From: Vicinamibacterales bacterium | GTDB lineage: Bacteria; Acidobacteriota; Vicinamibacteria; Vicinamibacterales; UBA8438 | Length of the DNA stretch: 64,000 nt | Reading direction: 5' to 3' | Assembly: GCA_965199675.1 (NCBI GenBank) | Contig: CBDATI010000059.1 | Span: forward strand, 78,291-142,290 | Shown: positions 51,260-64,000 of the stretch, piece by piece | Position numbering within the stretch: position 1 is the first letter of the stretch | How the letters are laid out: each line of letters opens with the position of its first letter | Made by a program: the position numbers and the translations under genes | The notes under the pieces: model-generated | What the model saw: only the letters and a program-made list of their open reading frames with translations | Database searches by the model: none | What the model was told of the DNA's origin: nothing

Positions 51260-52666
51260 TCAGTCGGCGGGCTGCTCGGTCCGGGACGCGCCCGCGTCCG
51301 TGCGGACCGCCTGAAGCACCCGTGGCAGCGCCTCTACAGCGTACAACGGCAACGAGAGAATACGCGCGGTCACGTCCTGGGTGCCCGTGGCGGTACGAAT
51401 GGCGTGGCGGACGGTCTGCAGGCTGGGCGGATTGGTGTCGAACCGCACCGCGATGGGCGGTCGTTTCTCGTGGGCGAACTGCAGGAGTGATTTCAACGCG
51501 CCGCTGCGTCCGGCCTTGACCTCGATCGGCACGAGCCAGTCCCGGTGCGAGACGACGTAGTCGATTTCCGCGTTGCCCCGCCGGGCGTGCCGCAGCCAGT
51601 AGTGGAGGTCCGGCGGGTGGTCGCCGCCGCTCAGCGCCGTCAGTTGCTGCCCCACGTACTGTTCGGCCACCCCGCCTTCGTTCACGAGCCGGGTATCGTC
51701 CAGCGTCTCGATGTCGGTCAGGTCCAGACCGCACAGGTGGTTCATCAGCCCCACGTCCATGAAGATCAGCTTGCTCGCCCGCTGGCCGGCGTCGGCGCCG
51801 AGCGGCAGCCCCGAACAGTGGGTGTGGGAGACGCGGTGGCAGACCCGCGCCTTGACCAGCAGGTCGATAGCCCGGCTCACTTCCGCCGCGCGCGCATCCG
51901 GGTCGAGACGGCGGTAGCTCACGGGCTGGCCCACGGATCGAGGCACGAGACGGAACAGCCGCTGGAGACGGGCGAGCGGCGTCCGCCGCGCGTACTTGGC
52001 GAAGTCGTCCTCATAGGTCGACGCGATGGACCGGTGGACGGCCGCCACCTCCAGCGGGGAACCCGATTCGCGGTACGCCAGTACCGCTTCGGGCAATCCG
52101 CCAACGACGAGATACTCGCGGAGCCGCCGGCCGAGTCGACGGTGGGCGGCCTCGGTCGGTGGCGCGTCCACGGCGAGGTCATCGAGAGGCCGGATCGCAG
52201 CCGGCTCGACCGCCGCCAGGAACTCGCGAAACGTCAGCGGCCCCAGATGCAGGTACTGAATGCGCCCGACCGGCATGGAGAATCCGTGGTCGGCGAGGGT
52301 GAACTCGAGCAGCGAGCCCGCCGCCACCACCGGCAGTTCCGGTCGGTCCTCGTACAGGTAGCGCAGAGCCGGCAGGGCATGGGGCGTCGCCTGCACCTCG
52401 TCCAGGAACAGGACCGCCTCGTCCAGTCGGGCGCCCCCGAGCGTCTCCAGCTCGCGCAGGATGCGGCCGGTGTCGAGGCTCTCGAACACGCGGTCGAGGT
52501 AGAGATGCCGCTCCAGGTTCACTTCGCAGAGCGCCATGCCGGCCGCCGCCGCGAACCGGCGAACCAGGGTCGTCTTCCCGACCTGCCGCGCCCCTCGCAG
52601 CACCAGCGGCTTGCGGCGGCGCGCCGTCAGCCAGCGTTGCAAGGTGTCTTCTACGATGCGCTTCAT
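51260..52666 (-). CDS. AAA+ ATPase with DUF4143 domain
   Basis: LVLRGARQVGKTTL (Walker A), LFLDEVQ (Walker B) and a DUF4143-like C-terminal half. TATAAT on the minus strand (52691-52696) lies in an AT-rich patch upstream. Confidence 0.85.
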   Translation of the reverse strand: MKRIVEDTLQRWLTARRRKPLVLRGARQVGKTTLVRRFAAAAGMALCEVNLERHLYLDRVFESLDTGRILRELETLGGARLDEAVLFLDEVQATPHALPALRYLYEDRPELPVVAAGSLLEFTLADHGFSMPVGRIQYLHLGPLTFREFLAAVEPAAIRPLDDLAVDAPPTEAAHRRLGRRLREYLVVGGLPEAVLAYRESGSPLEVAAVHRSIASTYEDDFAKYARRTPLARLQRLFRLVPRSVGQPVSYRRLDPDARAAEVSRAIDLLVKARVCHRVSHTHCSGLPLGADAGQRASKLIFMDVGLMNHLCGLDLTDIETLDDTRLVNEGGVAEQYVGQQLTALSGGDHPPDLHYWLRHARRGNAEIDYVVSHRDWLVPIEVKAGRSGALKSLLQFAHEKRPPIAVRFDTNPPSLQTVRHAIRTATGTQDVTARILSLPLYAVEALPRVLQAVRTDAGASRTEQPAD

Positions 52667-52867
52667 GACGATATAGACGTCTAAAATATCATTATAGGCG
52701 ACAATTCAGGCGTATCTACATGCTGTCGTGGCGTACGGCTCCCCGACCCGATCTGCGCGATTCCGGGCCGGCGAGTGCCCGTTCCGCGCGACGTCGGCGG
52801 CGGGAGACCCCAATCGTCGGACGACCCGCCGCGTCTGGTTTCAGACTGGTCGTACAATCCGGTCTCG

Positions 52868-52913
52868 AGTCACGAGTTCACATCGAGGGGAGTCACGAGT
52901 TCACATCGAGGGG
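52868..52913. repeat. perfect 23-bp direct repeat x2 (AGTCACGAGTTCACATCGAGGGG) abutting a TTGACC hexamer
   Basis: Units at 52868-52890 and 52891-52913 are read directly from the sequence. TTGACC lies at 52914-52919, about 105 bp upstream of the hsdM GTG. Confidence 0.85.
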
Positions 52914-53022
52914 TTGACCTTGGACATTGGCGCCTACGTTGCACTCATGGGCCACCGGAACGTCGGGAGGGGCGGCCGGACAGGGCTGCTGAGCGTCCAG
53001 GAGACGGACGGAGGGGCGTCCT

Positions 53023-55470
53023 GTGAGCAATCATGACCTGCACTGGATCGCCAACTACATCTGGGGCATCGCCGACGACGTGCTGCGCGACCTCTACGTC
53101 CGCGGCAAGTACCGCGACGTGATTCTGCCGATGACCGTGCTGCGCCGGCTCGACGCCGTGCTGGAGGACACCAAGCGGGCGGTGCTCGACATGGCAGGCC
53201 GGCTCGACCAGCACGGCGTCGTCGAGCAGGACTCGGCCCTGCGGCAGGCGGCGGGGCAGGCGTTCTACAACACGTCGCCGTTCACCCTGCACGACCTGCG
53301 CGCCCGCGCCAGCCGCCAGCAGCTCGAGGCCGACTTCCGGGCCTACCTCGACGGCTTCTCGCGCAACGTGCAGGACATCCTCGACAACTTCGAGTTCCGC
53401 AACCAGATCCCGCGCCTGTCGAAGGCCGACGCCCTGGGCACCCTGATTGAGCGGCTCACCTCGCCGGACATCAACCTCAGCCCGCATCCAGTGATGAACG
53501 CCGACGGCTCCATCCGGCATCCCGGCCTCGACAACCACGCCGTGGGCTCGATCTTCGAGGAGCTGGTCCGCCGCTTCAACGAGGAGAACAATGAGGAGGC
53601 GGGCGAGCACTGGACGCCGCGCGACGCCGTGCGGCTGATGGCCTGGCTCGTCTTCCTCCCGGTCGCCGACGACATCAAGTCCGGCACCTACCTGCTCTAC
53701 GATGGCGCCTGCGGCACCGGAGGCATGCTCACGGTCGCCGAGGAGACGCTGCAACAGCTCGCGGCCGAGCACGGGAAGGACGTCTCCACGCACCTGTACG
53801 GCCAGGAGATCAACGCCGAGACCTACGCCATCTGCAAGGCCGACCTGCTGCTGAAGGGCGAGGGCGAGGCGGCCGACAACATCGTCGGCGGCCCCGAGCA
53901 CTCCACCCTCGCCAACGACGCCTTCCCGGCTCGCGAGTTCGACTTCATGCTCTCGAACCCGCCGTACGGCAAGAGCTGGAAGACCGACCTCGAGCGCATG
54001 GGCGGCAAGCAGGCGATGCGCGACCCCCGCTTCGTCATCGACCACGCCGGCGACCCCGAGTACTCGCTGGTCACGCGCTCGAGCGATGGCCAGATGCTCT
54101 TCCTCGCCAACAAGCTCTCGAAGATGAAACAGGGCACGCCGCTCGGCAGCCGCATTGCCGAGGTGCACAACGGCAGCTCGCTCTTCACCGGCGACGCCGG
54201 GCAGGGCGAGAGCAACATCCGCCGCTGGATCATCGAGAACGACTGGCTGGAGGCCATCGTCGCCCTCCCCCTCAACCTGTTCTACAACACCGGCATCGCC
54301 ACTTACGTCTGGGTGCTCACCAACCGCAAACCCGAGCACCGCCGCGGCCAGGTGCAGCTCATCGACGCCACCGGGTGGTACCGGCCGTTGCGCAAGAACC
54401 TGGGCAAGAAGAACTGCGAGCTCGGCGAGGACGACATCACCCGCATCTGCGAGACCTTCTTGGACTTCGATGAGAGCGAGCAGTCGAAGATCTTCGACAA
54501 CGCCGCCTTCGGCTACTCGAAGGTGACCGTCGAGCGGCCGCTGCGCATCGAGGGAGCCGACCCGGAGCGCGTACACAAGGCGGCCGAGATCAAGGAGCTG
54601 AAGAAGAACGGCGCGCGCAGCGAGGATGCGCCGCCGATCATCCGCAAGGTCCACAAGCGGGGCACCGAGCCCGACCCGTTGCGCGGCCGGTTCGCGGCGA
54701 CCGTCAACGGCCGGCCGGCCTTGGTGGAGTACGAGCCGGACCCCGACCTGCGCGACACCGAGCAGATCCCGCTCACCGAGGCGGGCGGCATCGAGGCGTT
54801 CCTCCGTCGCGAGGTGCTGCCCTACGCCGCCGACGCCTGGTACCGGCCCGACAGTGTCAAGGTCGGCTACGAGATCAGCTTCACGCGCTACTTCTACAAG
54901 CCGAAGCCGATGCGGACCCTGGCCGAGATCCGAGCCGACATCCTCGCCCTGGAGCAGGAGACCGAGGGGATGCTGGGCGACATCCTCGCCGTCCGCGAGC
55001 GTCCGCCGGTCGAGCGCCTGCGCGTATACGCCGATACGTCGGTGATAGGCGGTTGCGAGGACCCCGAGTTCCGCGACCCGTCCCGCCGCTTGGTGGACCG
55101 CTTCGTCCGCGGCGATCTGATCCTCGTACTGTCGCCGCTCACGGTGGAGGAGCTCGCCGCGGCTCCGCCGTCGGTCCGCCGTGTCCTGGACACCGTGCCG
55201 CTCAACCACATCGAACGACTCCAGCGGAGCGTTGAAGCTCGGACGCTGGCCGCCGCCTATGTCGAGCGCGGCGCGCTGCCCGCACGGAGCGCAGTCGACG
55301 CCGAACACATTGCCATGGCCACCGTCGCCCAGGCCGACGTCCTGGTGAGCTGGAACTTCCGCCACATCGTCAGCTTGCGTCGCATGCGGGCGTACAATCG
55401 CATCAACCGGGCCCTGAAGCATCGGGCCATCGATATCCGCACGCCGAGGGAGATGAGCGATGACGGCTGA
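53023..55470 (+). CDS. hsdM: type I R-M DNA methyltransferase fused in frame to a C-terminal PIN-like domain
   Basis: 815-aa uninterrupted ORF with a GTG start and GGAGGGG upstream. The N-terminus IANYIWGIADDVLRDLYVRGKYRDVILPMTVLRRLD is HsdM-type. Motifs are DGACGTGGML and NPPYGKSW. From nt 55021 (aa 667) it reads RVYADTSVIGGCEDPEF..LTVEELAAAP..SAVDAEHIAMATVAQADVLVSWNFRHIV..IDIRTPREM, a PIN-like acidic-residue pattern. Confidence 0.85.
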   Translation: MSNHDLHWIANYIWGIADDVLRDLYVRGKYRDVILPMTVLRRLDAVLEDTKRAVLDMAGRLDQHGVVEQDSALRQAAGQAFYNTSPFTLHDLRARASRQQLEADFRAYLDGFSRNVQDILDNFEFRNQIPRLSKADALGTLIERLTSPDINLSPHPVMNADGSIRHPGLDNHAVGSIFEELVRRFNEENNEEAGEHWTPRDAVRLMAWLVFLPVADDIKSGTYLLYDGACGTGGMLTVAEETLQQLAAEHGKDVSTHLYGQEINAETYAICKADLLLKGEGEAADNIVGGPEHSTLANDAFPAREFDFMLSNPPYGKSWKTDLERMGGKQAMRDPRFVIDHAGDPEYSLVTRSSDGQMLFLANKLSKMKQGTPLGSRIAEVHNGSSLFTGDAGQGESNIRRWIIENDWLEAIVALPLNLFYNTGIATYVWVLTNRKPEHRRGQVQLIDATGWYRPLRKNLGKKNCELGEDDITRICETFLDFDESEQSKIFDNAAFGYSKVTVERPLRIEGADPERVHKAAEIKELKKNGARSEDAPPIIRKVHKRGTEPDPLRGRFAATVNGRPALVEYEPDPDLRDTEQIPLTEAGGIEAFLRREVLPYAADAWYRPDSVKVGYEISFTRYFYKPKPMRTLAEIRADILALEQETEGMLGDILAVRERPPVERLRVYADTSVIGGCEDPEFRDPSRRLVDRFVRGDLILVLSPLTVEELAAAPPSVRRVLDTVPLNHIERLQRSVEARTLAAAYVERGALPARSAVDAEHIAMATVAQADVLVSWNFRHIVSLRRMRAYNRINRALKHRAIDIRTPREMSDDG

Positions 55471-55921
55471 GCGCGACGAGAAGCGGTTCGATTGCGTGAA
55501 GTTCATGCGGGAACAGCGAGATCGACTCAGCGACAAGATGGCGACCATGAGCTCGGCGGAGTTCAGCGACTGGCTGGACAGCCGGCGCTACGACGACCCC
55601 GTCCTGCAGCGCCTCGCCAACCTGCCCCCTGGCCCCCGTTCGTCGCGCCACGAGGAAGGGACGAGCCCCGCGGACCACCGCGAGAGTCCGCCGGAGCAAG
55701 CAGGGTCCCCGACCGAGATCACCTTCGAGGTGCGGTCGGGCGGGCGCGACGGTCCGTACACCGCCCGGGCCCCCGGGTTCGGCCTCAGCGCCGCTGGCGG
55801 CTCCATCGAGGAGATCCGTCGGAACGTTCGGAAGGCGGTCGAACATCACTTCGACGACCTCGCGCGACGACCCCGCGCGATCCGTCTGCGTGTCGTCGGG
55901 GAAGAGGTGCTGCAGCTTTGA
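55460..55921 (+). CDS. two-part ORF: antitoxin-like N-terminus + HicB-like C-terminal domain
   Basis: 153 aa, overlapping the hsdM-PIN end by 11 nt. The N-terminus KRFDCVKFMREQRDRLSDKMATMSSAEFSDWL resembles, from memory, small proteins encoded beside SWNF-type PIN genes. The C-terminus EITFEVRSGG..YTARAPGFG..GGSIEEIRRNVRKAVEHHFDD..IRLRVVGEE is paralogous to the hicB product at 56420. Confidence 0.55.
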   Translation: MTAERDEKRFDCVKFMREQRDRLSDKMATMSSAEFSDWLDSRRYDDPVLQRLANLPPGPRSSRHEEGTSPADHRESPPEQAGSPTEITFEVRSGGRDGPYTARAPGFGLSAAGGSIEEIRRNVRKAVEHHFDDLARRPRAIRLRVVGEEVLQL

Positions 55922-55995
55922 CGGAAACCGTCGAGCAGTCTGCACGCGGCGGCAACCGAACCGATGCATTCGCTGGCCAAGATCCTCTACCGGGG

Positions 55996-56423
55996 GCCGA
56001 GATCAAGGCGCTGAAGGAGGCCGGCAAGTGCGGTGACGAGGCGCCGCCCGTCGTCCGCAAGGTCCACAAGCGGGGCACGGCCGCCGACCCGCTGCGCGGC
56101 CGGTTCGCGACCATCATCGACGGCCGGTCCGTCGTGGTGGAGTACGAGCCGGACCGCGACCTGCGCGACACCGAGCAGATTCCGCTCACCGAGAAGGGGG
56201 GCATCGAGGCGTTCCTCCGCCGCGAGGTTCTGCCCTATGCCGCCGATGCGTCGCACCGGCCCGACAGCGTGAAGGTCGGCCGAAGCCGATGCGGACCTTG
56301 GCCGAGATCCGCGCTGATATCTTGGCCCTGGAGCAGGAGACTGACGGCCTGCTGGCGGAGATTCTGGGCCACGGCGAACCGGCGCGACGCGATGAAGACG
56401 ACACCACGGGGATCGGACAATGA
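55996..56423 (+). pseudogene. diverged, internally deleted copy of an hsdM 3' end
   Basis: AEIKALKEAG..APPVVRKVHKRGTAADPLRGRFATIIDGRSVVVEYEPDRDLRDTEQIPLTEKGGIEAFLRREVLPYAADA..PDSVKVG aligns with hsdM codons at 54584-54870. A 34-nt stretch (tacgag..caagc, encoding YEISFTRYFYK) is missing. Past the deletion the other frame reads KPMRTLAEIRADILALEQETDGLLAEILGHGEPARRDEDDTTGIGQ*, with its stop overlapping the hicB ATG as ATGA. Confidence 0.8.
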
Positions 56424-56662
56424 CTGACAAACCAAACGCGGAGTCGCGGGCGCGGCCTTCGGAGATCATCTTCGAGGTCACCGAGGCGATCGAGGGGGGT
56501 TACGACGCCCGTGCGCTCGGCTACAGCATCTACACGCAGGGAGATGACTGGGACGATCTGAAGGAGATGGCGAGAGACGCGGTTCGCTGCCACTTCGATG
56601 ACGGCGATGCGCCGTGCGTGATCCGGCTGCATCTCGTGCGCGAGGAGGCCATCGCGGTATGA
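56420..56662 (+). CDS. hicB: HicB-like antitoxin
   Basis: 80 aa: SEIIFEVTEAIEGGYDARALGYSIYTQGDDWDDLKEMARDAVRCHFDD..IRLHLVREE. It is followed by an overlapping hicA (ATGA). Confidence 0.7.
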   Translation: MTDKPNAESRARPSEIIFEVTEAIEGGYDARALGYSIYTQGDDWDDLKEMARDAVRCHFDDGDAPCVIRLHLVREEAIAV

Positions 56663-56900
56663 AGCTGCCGCGCGATCTTTCGGGCACCGAGGTGGCTCGG
56701 CGGCTCGCCCGTCACTACGGCTACCGAGTGACTCGCAGCCGAGGCAGCCACATGACCGTGACGCGGATTATGAACGACAAGACCCATCAGGTCACCGTGC
56801 CCGCGATGTGCGCGTCGGCACGCTCGACGCGATCATCACCGATGTGGCGGCGTTCCTTGGCCTGACCAAGGGCGAGGTGCGCGACACGCTCTTCGGATAA
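56659..56900 (+). pseudogene. hicA: HicA-family mRNA interferase toxin, frameshifted
   Basis: MKLPRDLSGTEVARRLARHYGYRVTRSRGSHMTVTR...HQVTVPA then leaves the family pattern at about 56803-56811. The -1 frame continues as RVGTLDAIITDVAAFLGLTKGEVRDTLFG* and ends 3 nt before hsdS. The expected His after VTVP is missing. Confidence 0.7.
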
Positions 56901-58121
56901 CCCATGCTTGGCGACTTGAGGCCCTACTCGAAGACGAAGGACTCCGGCGTGGAGTGGCTGGGGAAGGTGCCGGCGCATTGGGAGGTCGTGCAGCTCGGCC
57001 GGATGGGTCGGCTCTTCAAAGGCGGCGGTGGCACGAAGGCGGACGATCGCGAGGACGGCGTGCCGTGCGTCCGCTACGGGGACCTGTACACGCATCACCG
57101 CTTCTTCATCACCGACAGCAGAGCGCGCGTTGCGCCCGAGACGGCCGCCACATACACACCGCTCCGCTACGGCGACGTCCTGTTCGCCGGGTCGGGCGAG
57201 ACCATCGACGAGATCGGCAAGTCCGCCGTCAACCTGATGCGCGACCCCGCCTGTTGTGGCGGTGACGTGATCGTCTTCCGGCCGTCCATCGATGTCGATA
57301 CCAGGTTCCTGGGCTACGCCGCGGACTGTCCGCAGGTGGCGTGGCAGAAGGCACGCATGGGGCGCGGCATCACGGTGATGCACATCTATGGGAGCGAACT
57401 CAAGTACCTGTTCGTCGCTCTGCCGCCGCTCCCCGAGCAGACCGCCATCGTCCGCTTCCTCGACCACGCCGACCGGCGCATCCGGCGCTACATCCGCGCC
57501 AAGGAGAAGCTGATCGCGCTGCTGGAGGAGCAGAAGCAGGCTTTCATCGACGAGGCCGTTACCGGGCGGATCGACGTGCGGACCGGCCGGCCGTACCCGG
57601 CCTACAAGGATTCAGGGGTGAAGTGGTTGGGGAGAGTGCCAGAACAGTGGGAGGTCAGGCCGCTCGGTCGCATCGGTCGGTTCTTCAAGGGAGGCGGCGG
57701 AACCAAGGAGGACGAGAGAGAGGACGGCATTCCTTGTGTCCGCTACGGCGACCTGTACACACAACACGAGTTCACCATCGCCGCGGCCCGGGCGTGCGTT
57801 ACCTCGGAGCTGGCGGCAACGGTTTACACGCCAATTCGGTACGGAGACGTTTGTTTCGCAGGGTCGGGGGAAACCATCGATGAAATTGGCAAGTCTGCAG
57901 TCAACTTGATTCGTGGCCCGGCTGTATGTGGCGGCGACGTGATCATTTTCCGACCCTCCAATGAAGCAGATGCTCGGTTCCTCGGTTACGCAACGGATTG
58001 TTCCGCGTCTGCGCGCCAGAAGGCGACGATCGGCCGCGGTTTCACGATCGTTCACATCTATTCCAGTGACCTCAAGCACGTCACGGTTGCGATTCCCAGC
58101 CTTTCCGAACAAGCTGCCCTA

Positions 58122-59623
58122 CCAGCCCGTGGAAAAAGTCGGCAAATTCGGGCCGATCGGGTCGATCTGAGTGGTTGTAGTGTCGTAGACTTCACAGCAT
58201 GGCGATGGGCAAGAGGCCGGCGGCTCGACCGGCGCCACCGATGTGGGTGACGGCAGAGGACCTTCCCAAGAGTGCGGGGCATCCCTTCTTCGAGCGGCTG
58301 AATCGGATTCTGGAGAAATCCAGGTTCGACGCTTTCGTGGAGGGGTTGTGTGCGGTCTTCTACGCGGAGCGAATGGGTCGTCCGAGTCTGCGACCCGGGC
58401 GGTATTTCCGGCTTCTGTTCATCGGGTATTTCGAGGGTCTGTCATCGGAGCGCGCGATTGCGTGGCGGGTCGCGGATTCGCTGAGCCTGCGGGCTTTCCT
58501 GGATCTGGACGTGACGGAGGCGACGCCGAACCACTCGACGCTGTCACGGACTCGGCGTCTGATCGACGTGGAGACGCACGCGGCGGTGTTCACGTGGGTG
58601 CTGGAGCGGTTGTCGGAAGCGGGTCTGGTGAAGGGGAAGACGATCGGGGTGGACGCGACGACGCTGGAAGCGAACGCGGCGATGCGGAGCATCGAGCGTC
58701 GGGATACGGGGGACTCGTACGACGCGTTCGTGCGGGGGCTGGCGGAGGCATCTGGCATTGCGACGCCGACGCGGGCGGAGTTGGCGCGTTTCGACCGTTC
58801 GCGGAAGGGCCGGAAGACGTCGAATGAAGAGTGGACGTCTCCGCAGGACCCGGACGCGAAGATCGCGAAGATGAAGGACGGTCGGACGCATCTGGCCCAC
58901 AAGGCGGAGCACGGTGTCGACCTGGAGACGGGAGCGCTCCTGTCGGTGACGGTTCAGGACGCGTCGGAGGGTGATACGGCGACGCTGCCGGAGACGCTGA
59001 CGAAGGCGGCGGAGCAGGTGGAGGCGGTTCAGCCTGACGGTGAGGGCGTCGAAGAGGTGGTGGCCGACAAGGGGTATCACAGCGACGCGACGCTGGTGGC
59101 GCTCGACGACCTTGGTGTACGCAGCTACATCGCGGAGCCGGCGCGTGGTCGGCGCGTCTGGCAGGACAAGAAGACGGGTGAGACGCCGCCGGAGAAGCGT
59201 GCTGCGCAGTCGGCGCTGTATGGGAATCGTCGGCGTATTCGCGGGGACCGGGGCCGTCGTCTCCAACGCTGCCGGGGGGAACTGGTGGAGCGGCCTTTCG
59301 CTCACCAGTATGAGACCGGGGGTCTGCGTCGGGTGTGGGTGCGCGGCCATGAGAATGTCCGCAAGCGGGTGCTGGTCCAGGCGGCGGGCTGCAACCTGGG
59401 TCTGTTGCTGCGCCGCCTGACGGGCGTCGGTACGCCCCGGAGCCTGCAGGGGCGGGCTCTTTCGGCGATTCTCGGGCTGATCGAACGCCTCATGGGCCTC
59501 TGGGGGCGTCTGAACGGCCTCTGGAGGGCCAAATGGGCTCCGGTCGCCCCCTGGGGCTCAGCCGCTCGTCCCCAAGCTGCTTGAACAGGCCCGCTCAGCG
59601 AACCGACTTCGTCCACGGGCTGA
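58122..59623 (+). mobile_element. 1502-bp insertion sequence (IS5/IS1182-like DDE transposase) with imperfect terminal IRs and TA duplication
   Basis: IRL is CCAGCCCGTGGAAAAAGTCGG (58122-). The reverse complement of the right end is TCAGCCCGTGGACGAAGTCGG (-59623). It is flanked by TA (58120-58121) and TA (59624-59625) and carries a single 461-aa transposase ORF. Confidence 0.85.
58199..59584 (+). CDS. DDE transposase (IS5/IS1182-like; N-terminal DUF772-type domain)
   Basis: ..HPFFERLNRILEKSRFDAFVE..GRPSLRPGRYFRLLFIGYFEGLSSERAI..VDATTLEANAA..KMKDGRTHLAHKAEHGVDLETGALLSVTVQDASEGD..VADKGYHS. The family-level call is from memory. Confidence 0.85.
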   Translation: MAMGKRPAARPAPPMWVTAEDLPKSAGHPFFERLNRILEKSRFDAFVEGLCAVFYAERMGRPSLRPGRYFRLLFIGYFEGLSSERAIAWRVADSLSLRAFLDLDVTEATPNHSTLSRTRRLIDVETHAAVFTWVLERLSEAGLVKGKTIGVDATTLEANAAMRSIERRDTGDSYDAFVRGLAEASGIATPTRAELARFDRSRKGRKTSNEEWTSPQDPDAKIAKMKDGRTHLAHKAEHGVDLETGALLSVTVQDASEGDTATLPETLTKAAEQVEAVQPDGEGVEEVVADKGYHSDATLVALDDLGVRSYIAEPARGRRVWQDKKTGETPPEKRAAQSALYGNRRRIRGDRGRRLQRCRGELVERPFAHQYETGGLRRVWVRGHENVRKRVLVQAAGCNLGLLLRRLTGVGTPRSLQGRALSAILGLIERLMGLWGRLNGLWRAKWAPVAPWGSAARPQAA

Positions 59624-59882
59624 TAGCCGGTTTCATTGAGGATGGGACTCGGAACATGAGCGCGGCTATTGCCGGCAGTCGGGGCCAGATCAAACGGGTA
59701 CGCGAGTACCGCACGCGCCTGATCGCGGACGTCGTCGCCGGCAAGCTCGATGTTCGCGAGGAGGCAGCTGGTCTTCCCGATGTCGATGCGCTGGCCGCCG
59801 AAGACGAGGCGGAGGACGCGGCCGCGGGCGGCGCCGTAACCGATGAAGAGCGACTCGAGGCAGGGCGCGAGGGGGCCGTCGC

Positions 59883-60285
59883 GTGACGCGGGGAGGCGCG
59901 GGCGCGAGCGGGCGGCGCGCGTTGAGGACGCTGCAACCTGCGGTGTTGCGCTGGGCGCGCGAACGCGCCGGGCTCAAGCCCGAGACGCTGGCCGCCGGGA
60001 TGAAAGTGAAGCCGGAGCGGGTCCACCACTGGGAACGGTCCGGCGAGATCAGCGTCTCCCAGGCGGGACCGGTTGGCGCGGCGTACCCATACGCCCCTCG
60101 GCTTCCTCTACCTTCGCGAACCCCCGGACGACGATCTGCCGATACCGGATTTCCGCGCGCCGCACGATCTGAGCCACTTCGACGCCACGGCGGACATCTG
60201 GCGGGATGAGCATTTCCGGGGTTGGTCGAACCGTTGTCCGCGGTGTCGCGGTGGTCGTGGCCCCACGAGTTCGCCGCGATCCTGA
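59883..60285 (+). pseudogene. decayed HTH(XRE)-type gene, likely the N-terminal part of an HTH + ImmA/IrrE-like protein
   Basis: The GTG overlaps the hsdS stop as GTGA. It reads LQPAVLRWARERAGLKPETLAAGMKVKPERVHHWERSGEISVSQA, then switches frame near 60060-60075 to ..RRTHTPLGFLYLREPPDDDLPIPDFRAP.. and terminates early. No peptidase part is present. Confidence 0.55.
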
Positions 60286-60339
60286 GCGAAGCCGCCTGAC
60301 GGCCACCGAGCGAGGAGCGGCAGGTCGAAGGAGAACGTC

Positions 60340-60597
60340 ATGAGTGTGGAATCGGAACTGGTCGATCGCATCACCGTGCGCCAGGACGTGTTCGGTGGCA
60401 AGCCTGTCATCCGTGACATGCGCATCGCGGTGGAGCACGTCCTCGGGATGTTGGGGGCGGGCGATACGGCGGATACCATCCTGCGGGAATACCCGGACCT
60501 CGAACCGGATGATATACAGGCGTGCCTGCTGTTTGCGCATCGCTCGATGGCTGGCGAGCAGGTGTACGACCGGCTTCCGGTTCGAGAGGCTTCGTGA
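60340..60597 (+). CDS. DUF433 domain protein (antitoxin-like)
   Basis: 85 aa: ITVRQDVFGGKPVIRDMRIAVEHVLGMLGAGDTADTILREYPDLEPDDIQACLLFA. AAGGAGA lies upstream. Confidence 0.8.
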   Translation: MSVESELVDRITVRQDVFGGKPVIRDMRIAVEHVLGMLGAGDTADTILREYPDLEPDDIQACLLFAHRSMAGEQVYDRLPVREAS

Positions 60598-60971
60598 GAT
60601 TTCTTCTCGATGCGTGCGCCGCATCGCGGAGCTTGCGCGAGTTCTTGATGAACCTGGGCCATGATGTCCGGTCCGCGCGAGGTGAGCACGCGCGGGCGTC
60701 GGACGAGGCGCTGCTCGCGTTGGCGTACGATGAGCACCGGGTGCTGGTCACAGAGGACAAGGATTTCGGCGAGCTCGTCTTCCTGCGGCGGCTGTCGCAC
60801 CCGTGCATCGTTCGGCTGGTGGCATTGACGGTCTCGGAGCAGGTGGCGGCGATGCAGGACTTAATCGAGCGGCATGGCGATGCGTTGCGCGCAGGCGCCA
60901 TTGTCGTCGTGACCAGGAGGCGCGTGCGAATACGAGGGACGGCTGGATTCGGGGAGGGAGACCGTGGCTGA
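60594..60971 (+). CDS. DUF5615-like (Mut7-C/PIN-like) protein
   Basis: GTG start overlapping the DUF433 stop as GTGA. It reads VRFLLDACAASRSLREFLMNLGHDV.....ASDEALLALAYDEHRVLVTEDKDFGELVF, the usual partner pattern of DUF433 genes. Confidence 0.72.
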   Translation: MRFLLDACAASRSLREFLMNLGHDVRSARGEHARASDEALLALAYDEHRVLVTEDKDFGELVFLRRLSHPCIVRLVALTVSEQVAAMQDLIERHGDALRAGAIVVVTRRRVRIRGTAGFGEGDRG

Positions 60972-63900
60972 GGCGACAGACACCACCGAGCGCGGCCTCG
61001 AACGCCTCATCTGCACCGCGCTGACCGGCCATCCCTGTGACCCGCCGCAAGAGGGGCGGGTGCGCGAGCCGCGGTCCGGCTACGGCGGAGTGGGCTGGAA
61101 CGCGGGGAATCCGCGGGACTACGACCGTGAATATTGCGTCGATCGGATCCAGCTTGCCGCCTTCCTGCAGGAGACCCAGCCGCAGACCGCCGACGCGCTC
61201 GCGCTGGATGAGGACGGTCCAACCCGACGGAAGTTCCTGGCGCGCCTCCAGGGCGAGATCGCGAAGCGCGGCACCATCGACGTGCTGCGCCACGGCGTCC
61301 GGCATGGCCCGCACGAGCTGGAGCTCTTCTACGGCGCCCCGTCGGCCGGGAACCCGCGGGCGCACGAGTGCTTCGAGCAGAACCGCTTCACGGTCGTCCG
61401 CCAGTTTCGTTACAGCCGCGACGAGACGCAGCGGGCGCTCGACATCGCCCTGTTCATCAACGGCCTGCCCGTGTTCACCTTCGAGCTGAAGAACAACCTC
61501 ACGAAGCAGACGACGGCCGACGCGGTCGAGCAGTACCGGCGGGACCGCAACCCGCGGGAGAAGCTGTTCGAGCTCGGCCGCTGCGTCGCCCACTTCGCGG
61601 TGGACGAGAGCGAGGTGCGCTTCTGCACGCAGCTTCGGGGCAAGGCGTCGTGGTTCCTGCCGTTCGACCGGGGCTGGAACGACGGCGCCGGCAACCCGCC
61701 CCACCCTGCCGGCATCAGGACCAGCTATCTGTGGCGGGAGGTGCTGGCCCGCGAGAGCCTGACCGACATCCTGGAGAACTACGCCCAGGTGGTGGAGGCG
61801 AAGGACGAGAAGACCGGCTGGAAGCAGCGCACGCAGGTCTGGCCCCGCTACCACCAGCTCGACGTGGTGCGGCGGCTGCTGGCCGACGCCGCAGCGCACG
61901 GGGCGGGCCGGCGCTACCTGATCCAGCACTCGGCGGGCAGCGGCAAGAGCAACTCCATCGCCTGGCTGGCCCACCAGTTGATCGGCCTGCGCCGGGACGA
62001 CGCGCCGGTCTTCGACTCGATCATCGTGGTCACCGACCGCCTCGTCCTCGACCGGCAGATCGGCGACACCATCCGGCAGTACGCCCAGGTCGGCGCCACG
62101 GTGGGGCGCGCGCAGCGGTCCGGCGACCTGCGGCGGTTCATCGAGGCGGGGAAGAAGATCATCATCTCGACCGTCCAGAAGTTCCCCTTCATCCTCGACG
62201 AGATCGGCAACGAGCAGCGCACGCGGCAGTTCGCCATCGTCATCGACGAGGCGCATTCCAGCCAGGGCGGGCGCACGTCGGCCTCCATCTCGGCCGCGCT
62301 GGGGACGGCCGGCGAGGAGGGCGAGGACGAGACCTTCGAGGATCGCATCAACCGCGTGATGGAATCACGCAAGCTGCTGCCCAACGCCAGCTACTTCGCG
62401 TTCACCGCGACGCCGAAGAACCGGACGCTGGAGATCTTCGGCGCGCCCGATCCGCAGCCCGACGGCGCGGTCCGACACCGCGCCTTCCACCGCTACACCA
62501 TGAAGCAGGCCATCGAGGAGGGCTTCATCCTGGACGTGCTGGCGCACTATACGCCGGTGGCCAGCTTCTATCGGCTCGCCAAGACGGTGGAGGACGACCC
62601 GGAGTTCGACGTCAGGAAGGCGCAGAAGAAGCTGCGGCGCTTCGTCGAGGGCCACGACCACGCTATCCGCCTCAAGGCCGAGATCATGGTCGACCACTTC
62701 CACGCCCAGGTCCTCGCCAGGAACAAGATCGGCGGTCAGGCGCGGGCGATGGTCGTGACGAATGGCATCGAGCGCGCCATCCAGTACTTCCACGCCATCC
62801 GCGACTACCTCCAGGAACGCAAGAGCCCCTGCCGCCCCATCGTCGCCTTCTCCGGCGAGCACGAGTTCGGCGGCCGGAAGGTGACCGAGACGTCACTGAA
62901 CGGCTTCCCGTCCGGGCAGATCGCCGAGAAGGTCCGGGAGGACCCGTACCGCTTCCTCGTCTGCGCCGACAAGTTCCAGACCGGCTACGACGAGCCGCTG
63001 CTGCACACGATGTACGTCGACAAGACGCTGTCCGGCATCAAGGCGGTACAGACGCTCTCGCGCCTCAACCGGGCGCACCCGCAGAAGCACGACGCGTTCG
63101 TGCTCGACTTCCTCAACGACGCCGACACCGTCCGGGACGCCTTCGCCGACTTCTACCGCGCGACAATCCTGGCCGGCGAGACCGACCCCGACAAGCTCCA
63201 CGACCTGCAGGCCGATCTCGACGCCGCACAGGTCTACTCACCGGAGCAGGTGGATGACCTCGTCGAACGCTACCTCGACGGGGCCGAGCGCGACGAACTC
63301 GATCCGATCCTCGACGCCTGCGTCGCCGTCTATGTGCAGGACCTCGACGAGGACGCGCAGGTGGCCTTCAAGGGCAGGGCCAAGGCGTTCGTGCGGACCT
63401 ACGGCTTCCTGTCGTGCGTCCTGCCGTACGCGAATGCGGCGTGGGAGAAGCGCTCCATCTTCCTGAACTTCCTGATCCCGAAGCTGCCGGCTCCCGCGGA
63501 GGAGGATCTGTCGAAGGGCATCCTCGACGCCATCGACATGGACAGCTACCGGGTGGAGAAGCGCGCGGCGCAGCAGCTCCTGCTGCCCGACGAGGATGCG
63601 GAGGTCGATCCGGTGCCGGCCAGCGGCGGTGGCCACCGGCCGGAGCCGGAACTCGACCGCCTGTCGAACATACTCAGGACGTTCAACGATCTGTTCGGCG
63701 ACATTCCCTGGAACGATGCCGATCGAGTGCGACAACTCATCACGGATACCATCCCGTCGCGCGTCGCCGACGATGCCGCATTCCAGAATGCAAGGCGCAA
63801 CTCGGATGACGAGAACACCCAAATCGAGCATGACAAGGCGCTGCGTCGCGTGGTGAACAACGTCATGAACGACGACGCCGAGTTGTTCAAGCGGTTCATG

Positions 63901-64000
63901 GACGACGAGGGCTTCAGGCGGTGGATGACCGACGCAGTCTTCGAGCTGGCCTGCGCGAGGACGGAGGATACTGCGGGTGTCGGCCGGACGGTCGTTGGGC
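60964..64000 (+). CDS. hsdR: type I restriction endonuclease subunit R, partial (continues past window end)
   Basis: My own translation from GTG 60964 (GGGGAGGGAG upstream) has no stop before the window end. It reads VAEATDTTERGLERLICTAL..ALDIALFINGLPVFTFELKN (nuclease region). It continues YLIQHSAGSGKSNSIAWLAHQL (Walker A), FAIVIDEAHSSQGG (DEAH) and FTATPKN. The last codons (..DDEGFRRWMTDAVFELA..) look close to the C-terminus. Confidence 0.9.
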   Translation, partial: MAEATDTTERGLERLICTALTGHPCDPPQEGRVREPRSGYGGVGWNAGNPRDYDREYCVDRIQLAAFLQETQPQTADALALDEDGPTRRKFLARLQGEIAKRGTIDVLRHGVRHGPHELELFYGAPSAGNPRAHECFEQNRFTVVRQFRYSRDETQRALDIALFINGLPVFTFELKNNLTKQTTADAVEQYRRDRNPREKLFELGRCVAHFAVDESEVRFCTQLRGKASWFLPFDRGWNDGAGNPPHPAGIRTSYLWREVLARESLTDILENYAQVVEAKDEKTGWKQRTQVWPRYHQLDVVRRLLADAAAHGAGRRYLIQHSAGSGKSNSIAWLAHQLIGLRRDDAPVFDSIIVVTDRLVLDRQIGDTIRQYAQVGATVGRAQRSGDLRRFIEAGKKIIISTVQKFPFILDEIGNEQRTRQFAIVIDEAHSSQGGRTSASISAALGTAGEEGEDETFEDRINRVMESRKLLPNASYFAFTATPKNRTLEIFGAPDPQPDGAVRHRAFHRYTMKQAIEEGFILDVLAHYTPVASFYRLAKTVEDDPEFDVRKAQKKLRRFVEGHDHAIRLKAEIMVDHFHAQVLARNKIGGQARAMVVTNGIERAIQYFHAIRDYLQERKSPCRPIVAFSGEHEFGGRKVTETSLNGFPSGQIAEKVREDPYRFLVCADKFQTGYDEPLLHTMYVDKTLSGIKAVQTLSRLNRAHPQKHDAFVLDFLNDADTVRDAFADFYRATILAGETDPDKLHDLQADLDAAQVYSPEQVDDLVERYLDGAERDELDPILDACVAVYVQDLDEDAQVAFKGRAKAFVRTYGFLSCVLPYANAAWEKRSIFLNFLIPKLPAPAEEDLSKGILDAIDMDSYRVEKRAAQQLLLPDEDAEVDPVPASGGGHRPEPELDRLSNILRTFNDLFGDIPWNDADRVRQLITDTIPSRVADDAAFQNARRNSDDENTQIEHDKALRRVVNNVMNDDAELFKRFMDDEGFRRWMTDAVFELACARTEDTAGVGRTVVG

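What the first reader, a model, noticed from the sequence alone, without database searches (positions are those of the whole stretch)
53023..55470. HsdM methyltransferase fused in frame to a C-terminal PIN-like nuclease domain
The 815-aa ORF is uninterrupted. Residues up to about 655 form a normal type I methyltransferase (DGACGTGGML, NPPYGKSW, and the C-terminal YEISFTRYFYKPKPMRTLAEIRADILALEQETEG helix). The decayed second hsdM 3' end downstream (55996-56423) shows where such genes normally stop, roughly 25 aa after LEQET. Here the frame instead continues through an 11-aa linker into about 150 aa. These read RVYADTSVIGG...TVEELAAAP...DAEHIAMATVAQADVLVSWNFRHIV...IRTPRE, with the spaced D/E/D/(N,D) pattern of PIN-fold RNases. 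The next ORF overlaps by 11 nt and looks antitoxin-like. Established precedent exists: the anticodon nucleases PrrC and RloC are encoded inside type I R-M loci and are held latent by the R-M complex. A toxin domain covalently tethered to the methylase would be a more direct version of that logic (R-M-coupled abortive infection or addiction). I do not know of it being described.
Basis: partly seen in the sequence, partly recalled or inferred. Interest (0 to 1): 0.85.

Follow-up and report, generated by a model that had tools for sequence, protein, structure and literature searches.

The report
Restriction methylase fused to PIN toxin
[quoted passage not shown] The same fusion recurs in soil and sediment bacteria of three phyla but I found no description of it, so it is a testable candidate for a physical link between restriction and toxin-antitoxin defence.

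Summary
ORF 53023-55470 (+) is an uninterrupted 815-aa gene: HsdM (aa 1-659), a linker of about 5-15 aa, then a 152-aa PIN domain (aa 664-815). An independent assembly from another sequencing run is 100% identical across the junction. The tail is about 60% identical to a large family of free-standing 152-aa PIN proteins. It models confidently (pLDDT 91.8) and its best structural matches are VapC toxins. The acidic site (D671, E710, D759, D772) is intact.

The fusion is not unique to this genome. At least 40 protein clusters and about 9 of 79 species-level genomes of this mobile hsdM clade carry it at the same junction (Acidobacteriota, Gemmatimonadota, Pseudomonadota). Databases name them only "N-6 DNA methylase". 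A conserved partner domain of about 55 aa follows every PIN, fused or free, overlapping by 8-14 nt. Here the partner is additionally fused to a HicB-like domain.

The most likely origin is a PIN-partner toxin-antitoxin cassette that landed in the hsdM-hsdS cassette hotspot and was captured by loss of the hsdM stop codon. I infer ordinary toxin-antitoxin behaviour (island addiction or abortive backup) with the toxin riding on the methylase. A PrrC-like guard role is possible but untested. I found no published description. I rate it a new variant of a known kind.

The parts
53023..55470 (+). hsdM-PIN fusion gene, 815 aa
   Evidence: Uninterrupted ORF. HsdM_N, N6_Mtase and weak PIN hits. PADLOC type I MTase PDLC03029 at 781 bits. 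Called as an 815-aa gene in the source record.
53023..54999 (+). HsdM portion (aa 1-659), including the C-terminal helix at aa 633-646
   Evidence: Pfam. 71-89% identical to hsdM of many MAGs. Nucleotide homology to the unfused paralogous 3' end stops at 54998. Helix from the full-length model.
54964..55011 (+). Flexible linker (aa 648-663); the residues not homologous to either parent are only aa 660-663 (RPPV)
   Evidence: pLDDT below 50 for aa 648-662 in the full-length model. Junction alignment of 25 fused proteins shows the conserved motif '..VREPxxxYxKLRVY'. No internal start codon is conserved among fused loci.
55012..55467 (+). VapC-like PIN domain (aa 664-815); putative active site D671, E710, D759, D772, plus N778
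   Evidence: About 60% identical to free-standing 152-aa PIN proteins whose Met aligns with E664. AF2 pLDDT 91.8, pTM 0.87. Foldseek top hits are VapC toxins, probability 1.0, TM 0.54-0.66. Residue conservation.
55460..55921 (+). Partner gene, 153 aa: a conserved partner domain of about 55 aa (55460-55624, putative antitoxin), a Pro/Ser-rich spacer, and a HicB/UPF0150-like domain (about 55700-55918)
   Evidence: The ATG lies 11 nt before the fusion's stop. The same partner domain follows every fused and free-standing PIN examined, overlapping by 8-14 nt. No Pfam or PADLOC family for the N-terminal domain; UPF0150 E 0.0035 for the C-terminal domain. The C-domain is 44-52% identical to HicB-like genes next to hicA in other loci. 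A second instance of the two-domain form is P0389.
55992..56427 (+). Remnant of a second, unfused hsdM 3' end (pseudogene fragment)
   Evidence: 81-85% identical to 54579-54998 with a 34-nt deletion. It shows the normal end of the gene, '...LEQETDGLLAEILGHGEPARRDEDDTTGIGQ*'. Similar same-strand remnants occur in five other genomes.
56420..56662 (+). hicB-like antitoxin gene (80 aa)
   Evidence: Homologous to HicB-like genes that precede hicA in L025, L059, L077, L080 and L082.
56659..56900 (+). hicA toxin gene, frameshifted near 56800-56806
   Evidence: HicA_toxin E 1.6e-4. Frame 0 followed by frame +2 reconstitutes a full HicA when compared with intact homologues.
56904..58121 (+). hsdS, 5' part (about 405 codons), interrupted by an IS
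   Evidence: Methylase_S. PADLOC Specificity_I. 70% identical to L012 HsdS aa 4-405.
58119..59626 (+). Insertion sequence inside hsdS (transposase 58199-59584; 24-nt inverted repeats)
   Evidence: Inverted repeat I1. ORF. The same element at 99.9% identity in L099 is annotated DDE_Tnp_1/DUF772.
59623..59886 (+). hsdS 3' tail displaced by the IS
   Evidence: tblastn to L012 HsdS aa 405-457.
60340..60971 (+). DUF433 antitoxin-like gene plus DUF5615 (PIN-like/Mut7-C) gene: a third TA-type pair inside the R-M operon
   Evidence: Pfam DUF433 E 3.8e-22; DUF5615 E 3.4e-15.
60973..64000 (+). hsdR, apparently intact; runs off the end of the window
   Evidence: One continuous tblastn match, 66.5% identity over 1009 aa, to the HsdR of L011.

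Best explanation
This is a genuine, heritable gene fusion. A complete type I methyltransferase subunit (HsdM) carries a separately folded VapC-type PIN nuclease domain, attached by a short disordered linker straight after the HsdM C-terminal helix. A small conserved partner gene is translationally coupled to the fusion's stop codon.

Origin (inferred). The gap between hsdM and hsdS in this very mobile hsdM clade is a hotspot for small toxin-antitoxin cassettes, either HicBA or PIN plus partner. A PIN-partner cassette landed directly behind hsdM. Loss of the hsdM stop codon and of the PIN start codon then welded the toxin to the methylase. The fused allele spread horizontally, probably by recombination within the conserved hsdM 3' end.

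Mechanism (inferred, not shown). The PIN is an Mg2+-dependent RNase toxin that the partner keeps inactive by binding it. Because the toxin is part of the HsdM polypeptide, it is made in fixed proportion to the methylase and sits on the M2S1 and R2M2S1 complexes. If partner supply fails, through loss of the island or through phage-induced shut-off of host expression, the tethered PIN is freed and arrests the cell. That would stabilise the R-M island (addiction) and provide an abortive second line of defence.

In this particular genome the R-M system is decaying: hsdS is split by an IS, hicA is frameshifted, and an older hsdM end survives as a remnant. The toxin-partner pair is intact, as expected for an addictive module.
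For: Shown by tool results.

- The ORF is open and independently re-assembled at 100% identity.
- The tail belongs to a family of more than 1,400 clusters of free-standing 152-aa PIN proteins, and their start codon aligns with E664.
- The PIN model is confident and matches VapC toxins.
- The acidic tetrad is intact here, in 18 of 23 fused relatives and in 30 of 33 free-standing ones.
- At least 40 clusters span the junction at 50-70% identity.
- Full-length in-frame fusions of 774-817 aa occur in L011, L017, L018, L019 and L021, and an in-frame fusion in L020 (first in-frame start gives 888 aa); further 815- and 874-aa members are on record.
- The junction is at the same position, with a conserved linker motif, in all of them.
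- Fused loci come from Vicinamibacterales, Thermoanaerobaculia, Bryobacterales, Longimicrobiales and Pseudomonadales MAGs.
- The partner domain follows every PIN examined (14 of 14), with an 8-14 nt overlap.
- Free-standing PIN-partner pairs sit in TA-rich islands unrelated to R-M.
- HicBA occupies the same hsdM-hsdS slot in other genomes: HicB in 25 of 80 loci and PIN in 9 of 80.
- One locus (L047) shows hsdM read-through into hicB, so stop-codon loss does happen at this spot.
- The PIN is a separate module after a low-confidence linker.
- In L099 hsdM and the 5' half of the PIN are deleted while the partner gene is intact. Toxin lost first and antitoxin kept is the usual order of TA decay.
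- No terminator-like site on the + strand separates hsdM-PIN from hsdS.
Against: - Nothing shows RNase activity, toxicity, or neutralisation by the partner.
- The partner has no recognisable antitoxin or DNA-binding family. It lies downstream of the toxin, unlike classical VapBC.
- PIN hits are below Pfam gathering scores.
- Five of 23 fused copies have one active-site substitution. The two I checked still keep the partner, and their hsdM is truncated or split, so that test did not discriminate.
- The PIN tree does not resolve a single origin; the split between free-standing and fused copies has bootstrap support of 37/100.
- Fused PINs are more divergent from each other (mean 51% identity) than the sampled free-standing ones (73%). 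That could mean relaxed constraint.
- No data show that the 815-aa protein is made, or that it assembles with HsdS.
- In this genome hsdS is disrupted, so any coupling to the R-M system may be moot here.
Confidence: 0.55

Rival explanations
1. PrrC-like guard. The tethered PIN is held latent by the assembled HsdM/HsdS(/HsdR) complex, not only by the partner. It is switched on when a phage anti-restriction protein, or disassembly of the complex, perturbs HsdM. That would give abortive infection triggered by attack on the R-M system.
For: The toxin is physically part of HsdM and starts about 17 residues after the C-terminal helix. From my own recollection of type I MTase structures, that helix packs on the HsdS coiled coil. 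The fusion has been retained without reversion in every PIN-bearing locus of this hsdM clade. There is precedent: PrrC is embedded in EcoprrI and is activated when T4 Stp inhibits the enzyme (review PMC12707154).
Against: There is no homology to PrrC or RloC. The PIN family is overwhelmingly free-standing and carries its own partner, so it already has a dedicated inhibitor. The same slot holds ordinary HicBA cassettes in other genomes. The pair persists here although hsdS is broken. No experiment bears on activation.
Confidence: 0.15
2. Neutral accident or decaying locus. The fusion is a harmless read-through that hitch-hikes with a mobile R-M operon. In this genome it is one more lesion in a degenerating island, and the PIN is inactive or irrelevant when fused.
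For: The island shows decay: hsdS::IS, a hicA frameshift and an hsdM remnant. A read-through into hicB occurs in L047. Several fused copies are frameshifted, truncated or have lost an acidic residue (L022, L023, P0280, P0281). Fused PINs evolve faster than free-standing ones.
Against: The frame, the fold-defining residues and the acidic tetrad are kept across 40-50% sequence divergence and three phyla. The partner gene with its coupled start is kept in all fused loci; an inert toxin would not need it. The hsdM-PIN gene, the partner and hsdR are all intact in the window.
Confidence: 0.2
3. Accessory restriction nuclease. The PIN acts on nucleic acid at the R-M target, either DNA or nascent RNA, as part of restriction. 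It is not a growth-arrest toxin.
For: Matelska et al. [quoted passage not shown] The Foldseek hits also include PcrIIC1, a PIN-like partner of Cas9 (8wmm).
Against: hsdR is present and intact next to the fusion here and in L011. The closest relatives are two-gene TA-like modules with no R-M context. The best structural matches are VapC RNase toxins.
Confidence: 0.05
4. Sequencing or assembly artefact that hides a stop codon or an indel at the junction.
For: None found. Some related long-read contigs (L009, L061) do carry frameshift errors.
Against: An independent contig is 100% identical across 54827-56186. The same in-frame junction is present in many unrelated assemblies, including short-read MAGs and a 45x long-read contig.
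Confidence: 0.01

Closest known systems
PIN-domain TA genes embedded in type I R-M operons (Matelska, Steczkiewicz and Ginalski 2017, PMC5499597)
   Same: PIN-like toxins of TA type lie within hsdM/hsdS/hsdR operons. That paper even notes a DUF433 plus PIN-like pair with HsdM/HsdS, as seen here at 60340-60971.
   Different: Those are separate genes, and the paper states that no direct TA-R-M interaction has been shown. Here the PIN is part of the HsdM polypeptide.
PrrC/EcoprrI and RloC (anticodon nucleases in type I R-M loci)
   Same: An RNA-targeting suicide nuclease is encoded inside a type I R-M locus, with potential physical association with the R-M proteins.
   Different: PrrC and RloC are ABC-ATPase-type proteins with no PIN fold and no dedicated small partner, and they are non-covalently bound. 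There is no sequence or fold relationship to this tail.
VapBC type II toxin-antitoxin systems
   Same: The PIN fold with four conserved acidic residues, a two-gene module with overlapping coding regions, and location in TA-rich islands.
   Different: The gene order is toxin first. The partner has no AbrB, RHH, Phd or other recognised DNA-binding domain and belongs to no curated family. The toxin is fused to an enzyme of about 660 aa.
DarTG2 embedded in a type I R-M system (RptR island, PMC12255303) and 'embedded' defence systems (Payne et al. 2024 preprint)
   Same: A TA or Abi module is nested in a type I R-M operon, which acts as a recombination hotspot.
   Different: Those are embedded as separate genes between hsdS and hsdR. 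Here the module lies between hsdM and hsdS and is fused to hsdM.
HicAB toxin-antitoxin
   Same: HicBA cassettes occupy the same hsdM-hsdS slot in sister genomes and downstream in this window. The partner ORF here ends in a HicB-like domain.
   Different: The toxin fused to HsdM is a PIN, not HicA.

Membership tests
Type I R-M methyltransferase subunit (HsdM) | HsdM_N domain plus N6-adenine MTase domain above the curated thresholds | tested here: met
   PF12161 at 75.9 bits (cut-off 24.5); PF02384 at 167.6 bits (cut-off 20.4). PADLOC MTase_I at 781 bits.
Type I R-M methyltransferase subunit (HsdM) | SAM-binding motif I and catalytic motif IV (NPPY/F) | tested here: met
   DGACGTGGML and NPPYGKSW are present in the translation.
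Type I R-M methyltransferase subunit (HsdM) | Operon with hsdS and hsdR | tested here: met
   hsdS at 56904-58121 and 59623-59886, split by an IS. hsdR from 60973 to the window's end, intact.
PIN domain superfamily (VapC-like) | Rossmann-like alpha/beta/alpha PIN fold | tested here: met
   AF2 pLDDT 91.8. Foldseek top hits are VapC toxins 3h87, 4chg, 5ecw, 5k8j and 5x3t, probability 1.0, TM 0.54-0.66.
PIN domain superfamily (VapC-like) | Conserved acidic residues at the canonical positions (end of beta1, helix 3, helix 5, beta4) | tested here: met
   D671, E710, D759 and D772 are present. They are invariant or nearly invariant in 57 aligned relatives. Their positions agree with the model's secondary structure. 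Their spatial clustering in the model was not measured.
PIN domain superfamily (VapC-like) | Score above the Pfam gathering threshold for a PIN family | tested here: not met
   PIN_3 at 24.4 bits against 27; PIN at 15.6 bits against 23.6. This is a divergent subfamily. Some relatives carry precomputed PF01850 or PF13470 hits.
PIN domain superfamily (VapC-like) | Metal-dependent ribonuclease activity | not testable with these tools
   Needs biochemistry.
VapBC type II TA system | Antitoxin gene upstream, encoding an N-terminal DNA-binding domain (AbrB, RHH, Phd/YefM or similar) | tested here: not met
   The partner is downstream and matches no Pfam, NCBIfam or PADLOC family.
VapBC type II TA system | Small cognate partner gene conserved next to the toxin and translationally coupled to it | tested here: met
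   14 of 14 loci, with an 8-14 nt overlap.
VapBC type II TA system | The partner neutralises the toxin by direct binding | not testable with these tools
Needs co-expression and pull-down.
PrrC/RloC anticodon nucleases | ABC-ATPase-like N-domain plus anticodon-nuclease C-domain | tested here: not met
   No such domains in Pfam, NCBIfam or PADLOC scans of the fusion or its neighbours.
PrrC/RloC anticodon nucleases | Latency imposed by the R-M complex and release by an anti-restriction factor | not testable with these tools
   Needs genetics and phage assays.
HicAB | HicB-type (UPF0150-like) antitoxin domain adjacent to hicA | tested here: inconclusive
   The C-domain of ORF 55460-55921 scores UPF0150 E 0.0035, below the cut-off. 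It is 44-52% identical to HicB-like genes that precede hicA in L025, L059, L077 and L082. No hicA directly follows it here.

The most novel reading that the evidence does not exclude
The HsdM-tethered PIN is a built-in guard of the restriction complex. Two PIN domains are held apart or occluded on the assembled M2S1/R2M2S1 enzyme, and by the partner. They dimerise into an active RNase when a phage anti-restriction protein or complex disassembly perturbs HsdM. That would be a single-polypeptide version of the PrrC-EcoprrI logic, evolved independently from a VapC-type toxin.
Probability: 0.15. Interest if true: 0.85.

Novelty: new variant of a known kind. Interest (0 to 1): 0.6.

Why it matters
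TA and Abi genes nested in type I R-M operons are well known. Apart from PrrC, however, whether they interact physically with the R-M proteins is an open question, and Matelska et al. 2017 say explicitly that no direct interaction has been shown. A naturally occurring covalent HsdM-toxin fusion, conserved across phyla and still accompanied by its coupled partner, gives a concrete construct for testing that question. Does attaching a toxin to the methylase merely ensure co-inheritance and fixed stoichiometry, or does it make the toxin responsive to the state of the restriction complex? It also affects annotation: these proteins are currently labelled only "N-6 DNA methylase". Finally, the recurring hsdM 3'-end remnants suggest how TA cassettes are exchanged at this site.

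Tried and rejected
- **Sequencing or assembly error at the junction.** Rejected: independent contigs are 100% identical, and the same junction is present in many assemblies.
- **P0028/L010 as another fused fragment.** Rejected: it is a free-standing PIN next to a lipA-like gene, although it keeps a linker-like N-terminus.
- **Independent translation of the PIN from an internal start.** ATG codons exist at 54910 and 54970, but no in-frame start is conserved among fused loci, so I did not adopt this.
- **Single origin from a PIN phylogeny.** Inconclusive. One NJ tree shows 31 free-standing PINs as a clade with the fused ones outside it. Bootstrap support for that split is only 37/100, and a second distance method breaks it. 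The argument for a single origin therefore rests on the identical junction position and the linker motif.
- **Do catalytically substituted fused copies lose the partner?** They do not, but those hsdM genes are themselves truncated, so the test is uninformative.
- **Profile search of solved structures with alignment A3.** Uninformative, because HsdM segments of the fused rows dominated the profile.
- **Full-length AF2 model.** Poor for the N-terminal half (mean pLDDT 65). I used only the C-terminal 300 residues.
- **Homology search with the partner ORF.** It returned only the window's own protein and one relative, because of the word-index limit. The partner family was instead defined from the fetched loci.
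- **PADLOC, NCBIfam and Pfam scans.** No family for the PIN tail (beyond the weak PIN hits) or for the partner.
- **dN/dS.** Not attempted, because synonymous sites are saturated at 50-60% protein identity.
Full report
**1. Observation**

ORF 53023-55470 (+) is open for 815 codons from a GTG start. Pfam places HsdM_N at aa 9-144 and N6_Mtase at aa 171-486. It gives only weak PIN hits on the tail: for the tail alone, PIN_3 scores E 5.4e-5 and 24.4 bits, below the 27-bit gathering score. PADLOC's best type I MTase profile is 661 positions long and scores 781 bits, which fits a normal subunit of about 660 aa.

The downstream "second hsdM 3' end" is real. Bases 55992-56377 are 81-85% identical to 54579-54998 and carry a 34-nt internal deletion. 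The similarity ends at 54998/56377. That unfused copy ends "...LEQETDGLLAEILGHGEPARRDEDDTTGIGQ*". The fused gene instead reads "...LEQETEGMLGDILAVRE-RPPV-ERLRVYADTSVIGG...".

The window is about 68% G+C here, so long open frames are common by chance (one search lists many). Openness alone proves little; the homology described below is what counts.

The artefact explanation fails. Logan contig L097, from a separate SRA run, is 100% identical to window 54827-56186. L096 and L098 are 100% identical over 55396-56807. The source record itself calls an 815-aa gene.

**2. What the tail is**

The last 161 aa find 1,420 protein clusters. The best 120 are all free-standing proteins of 151-175 aa (typically 152) at 55-62% identity, and the few that carry names are called "PIN domain protein". 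Their start codon aligns with E664 of the fusion ("M(R/K)xR(I/V)Y(T/A)DTSV" against "ERLRVYADTSV").

An AlphaFold2 model of aa 664-815 built on a 57-sequence alignment is confident (pLDDT 91.8, pTM 0.87). Its best matches among solved structures are VapC toxins: M. tuberculosis Rv0301, VapC15, VapC11 and VapC20, and the Shigella, Caulobacter and Rickettsia VapCs. These score probability 1.0 and TM 0.54-0.66.

The canonical acidic positions are D671, E710, D759 and D772, with N778 in an invariant SWN motif. All are present here. The tetrad is complete in 30 of 33 free-standing relatives and in 18 of 23 fused ones.

A full-length model is poor in the N-terminal half because the alignment is shallow there. 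Its C-terminal part shows the HsdM C-terminal helix (aa 633-646), then a low-confidence stretch (aa 648-662), then a well-folded PIN (aa 666-811, pLDDT 92-97). That describes a separate module on a flexible tether.

**3. The fusion recurs**

- A 300-aa query spanning the junction finds at least 40 clusters that cover 90% or more of it, at 50-70% identity. They include NCBI MAG proteins named only "N-6 DNA methylase" (for example MCY4629112.1) that carry both N6_Mtase and PIN Pfam hits.
- The exhaustive HMMER search finds P0169, a 774-aa HsdM_N + N6_Mtase + PIN protein on a 45x-coverage contig.
- Among one-genome-per-species GTDB assemblies, the fused form is present in Vicinamibacterales (L016, L061), Thermoanaerobaculia (L017), Acidobacteria (L018), Longimicrobiales (L019; truncated in L023), Bryobacterales (L020), Vicinamibacteria (L021) and Pseudomonadales (L022, frameshifted). 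About 70 other genomes have the same hsdM clade unfused.
- Direct inspection shows full-length in-frame ORFs of 774-817 aa in L011, L017, L018, L019 and L021. L020 is also in frame; its first in-frame start gives 888 aa.
- In 79 loci, 70 hsdM genes stop within 30 residues of the conserved helix. The PIN is the only recurrent long extension. One locus (L047) instead reads through into the adjacent hicB-like gene.
- The junction is at the same place in all fused loci: the PIN begins 24-27 codons after HsdM residue 640. The linker has a conserved motif, "(V/A)(R/A)EP...Y.(K/R)LR(V/I)Y".

This points to one fusion event followed by horizontal spread with a very mobile R-M operon (HsdM is 71-89% identical across phyla). 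A PIN tree does not settle the matter, with bootstrap support of 37/100. Fused PINs are more divergent from one another (mean 51% identity) than the sampled free-standing ones (73%).

**4. The partner**

Every PIN gene examined, fused or free-standing, is followed by a small gene whose ATG lies 8-14 nt before the PIN's stop codon. It encodes a conserved domain of about 55 aa, "FDCVxxMRExRDRISxEIxxMSxEExxxWLxS..DPxLxRL", followed by a basic, variable tail (gene calls). It matches no Pfam, NCBIfam or PADLOC family.

Free-standing PIN-partner pairs sit among other TA genes with no R-M context. So this is an uncharacterised two-gene, TA-like module with the toxin gene first.

In the window the partner ORF is 153 aa rather than 61-86 aa, because it continues through a Pro/Ser-rich spacer into a HicB/UPF0150-like domain. 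One other instance of this two-domain form was found: P0389, 51% identical. In that contig (L099) hsdM and the 5' half of the PIN are missing while the partner gene is intact. Losing the toxin first is the order expected when a TA pair decays.

**5. Context**

The operon reads as follows:

- hsdM-PIN
- partner-HicB-like ORF
- hsdM 3' remnant
- hicB
- hicA, frameshifted near 56800
- hsdS, split by an IS at about 58121/59623
- a DUF433 plus DUF5615 (PIN-like) pair
- hsdR, intact and running off the window

The island has 64-70% G+C against 71-76% in the flanking genes. No terminator-like site on the + strand separates hsdM-PIN from hsdS.

In sister genomes the hsdM-hsdS slot holds HicBA (HicB in 25 of 80 loci) or the PIN-partner pair (9 of 80), sometimes in several copies. 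Extra same-strand remnants of the hsdM 3' end lie downstream of hsdM in L025, L058, L059, L077 and L082, as in the window. This suggests that cassettes arrive together with an hsdM 3' end and recombine within that conserved sequence, pushing the older end and its cassette downstream.

**6. Mechanism**

Shown:

- The protein is a real, recurrent fusion of an apparently catalytically complete HsdM to a VapC-like PIN with an intact acidic site.
- A conserved partner gene is translationally coupled to it.

Inferred:

- The PIN is an RNase toxin and the partner is its inhibitor.
- Fusion makes the toxin stoichiometric with HsdM and a passenger on the methylase and restriction complexes.
- Failure of partner supply, through island loss or phage shut-off, releases the toxin. 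The result is addiction and/or abortive defence.

I put about 0.55 on this TA-type reading. The more specific PrrC-like guard model, with activation by attack on the R-M complex, is possible because the PIN starts about 17 residues after the HsdM C-terminal helix. From my recollection of solved type I MTase structures, that helix binds the HsdS coiled coil; I did not test this here. Nothing in the data requires the guard model (about 0.15). A neutral or decaying fusion (about 0.2) is disfavoured by the retention of the frame, the active site and the partner across three phyla. It cannot be excluded for this particular decaying locus.

**7. Comparison with what is known**

Matelska et al. 2017 (PMC5499597, section 17) reported PIN-type TA genes transcriptionally linked to type I R-M subunits. 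They stated that no direct TA-R-M interaction had been shown, and they do not describe a fusion. PrrC and RloC (review PMC12707154), DarTG2 within a type I system (PMC12255303) and the "embedded defence" survey of Payne et al. 2024 all concern separate genes. Five full-text searches found no paper describing an HsdM-PIN fusion. The library is incomplete, so this is absence of evidence only. The proteins are already in public databases without comment.

**8. Verdict**

The architectural interpretation is supported and extended. The functional interpretation is untested. I rate the finding a new variant of a known kind, with interest 0.6.

Noticed in passing
window 52867-52912: Two perfect tandem copies of a 23-nt unit (GAGTCACGAGTTCACATCGAGGG) lie about 110 nt upstream of the hsdM start, in the intergenic region shared with the divergent PDC-S01 gene. 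They could be an operator; direct repeats control a type I R-M island through RptR in PMC12255303. No regulator gene is obvious nearby.
   Followed up: no
window 55992-56427; L025, L058, L059, L077, L082: Same-strand remnants of the hsdM 3' end recur downstream of hsdM, between TA cassettes, in several genomes (up to five in L059). This suggests cassette accretion or replacement by recombination within the conserved hsdM 3' end.
   Followed up: partly
window 56659-56900: hicA is frameshifted near 56800-56806. Frame 0 gives 'MKLPRDLSG...HQVTVP' and frame +2 gives 'RDVRVGTLDAIITDVAAFLGLTKGEVRDTLFG*'. The upstream hicB (56420-56662) is intact.
   Followed up: yes
window 58119-59626: An IS with a DDE_Tnp_1/DUF772-type transposase (58199-59584) and 24-nt inverted repeats interrupts hsdS about 50 codons before its end. 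Contig L099 carries two tandem copies of the same element at 99.9% identity.
   Followed up: partly
window 60340-60971: A DUF433 gene and a DUF5615 (PIN-like/Mut7-C) gene form a third TA-type pair between hsdS and hsdR. The same pair occurs near the fused hsdM in L009, L016, L099 and L101.
   Followed up: partly
window 51260-52666 (-): An AAA_14 + DUF4143 ATPase matches the PADLOC candidate defence family PDC-S01 (E 4.6e-137) and lies divergently next to the R-M island. A similar gene is near the fused hsdM in L011.
   Followed up: no
L047 (Candidatus Marinacidobacterium MAG), around 6400-6600: The hsdM of this clade reads through into a HicB-like sequence, a 66-residue extension. This is an independent example of stop-codon loss fusing hsdM to the next TA gene.
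   Followed up: no
L010 334-816 (P0028): A free-standing PIN beside a lipA-like gene starts 'VSEGPPPERLRIY'. This resembles the window's linker 'VRERPPVERLRVY', and it groups with the window's PIN in the tree. It may be a secondary fission of a fused allele or a relative of the ancestor.
   Followed up: partly
L099 1-1300: This contig is a mosaic relative of the island. Its IS and DUF433 region are 97-99.9% identical to the window. hsdM and the 5' half of the PIN are absent, leaving an 87-aa PIN remnant and an intact partner-HicB-like gene (P0389, 51% identical to the window's). It is a 1x long-read contig.
   Followed up: partly
window 52000-64000: The R-M/TA island has 64-70% G+C against 71-76% in the flanking housekeeping genes (folD-like, transporter). 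This fits horizontal acquisition.
   Followed up: partly
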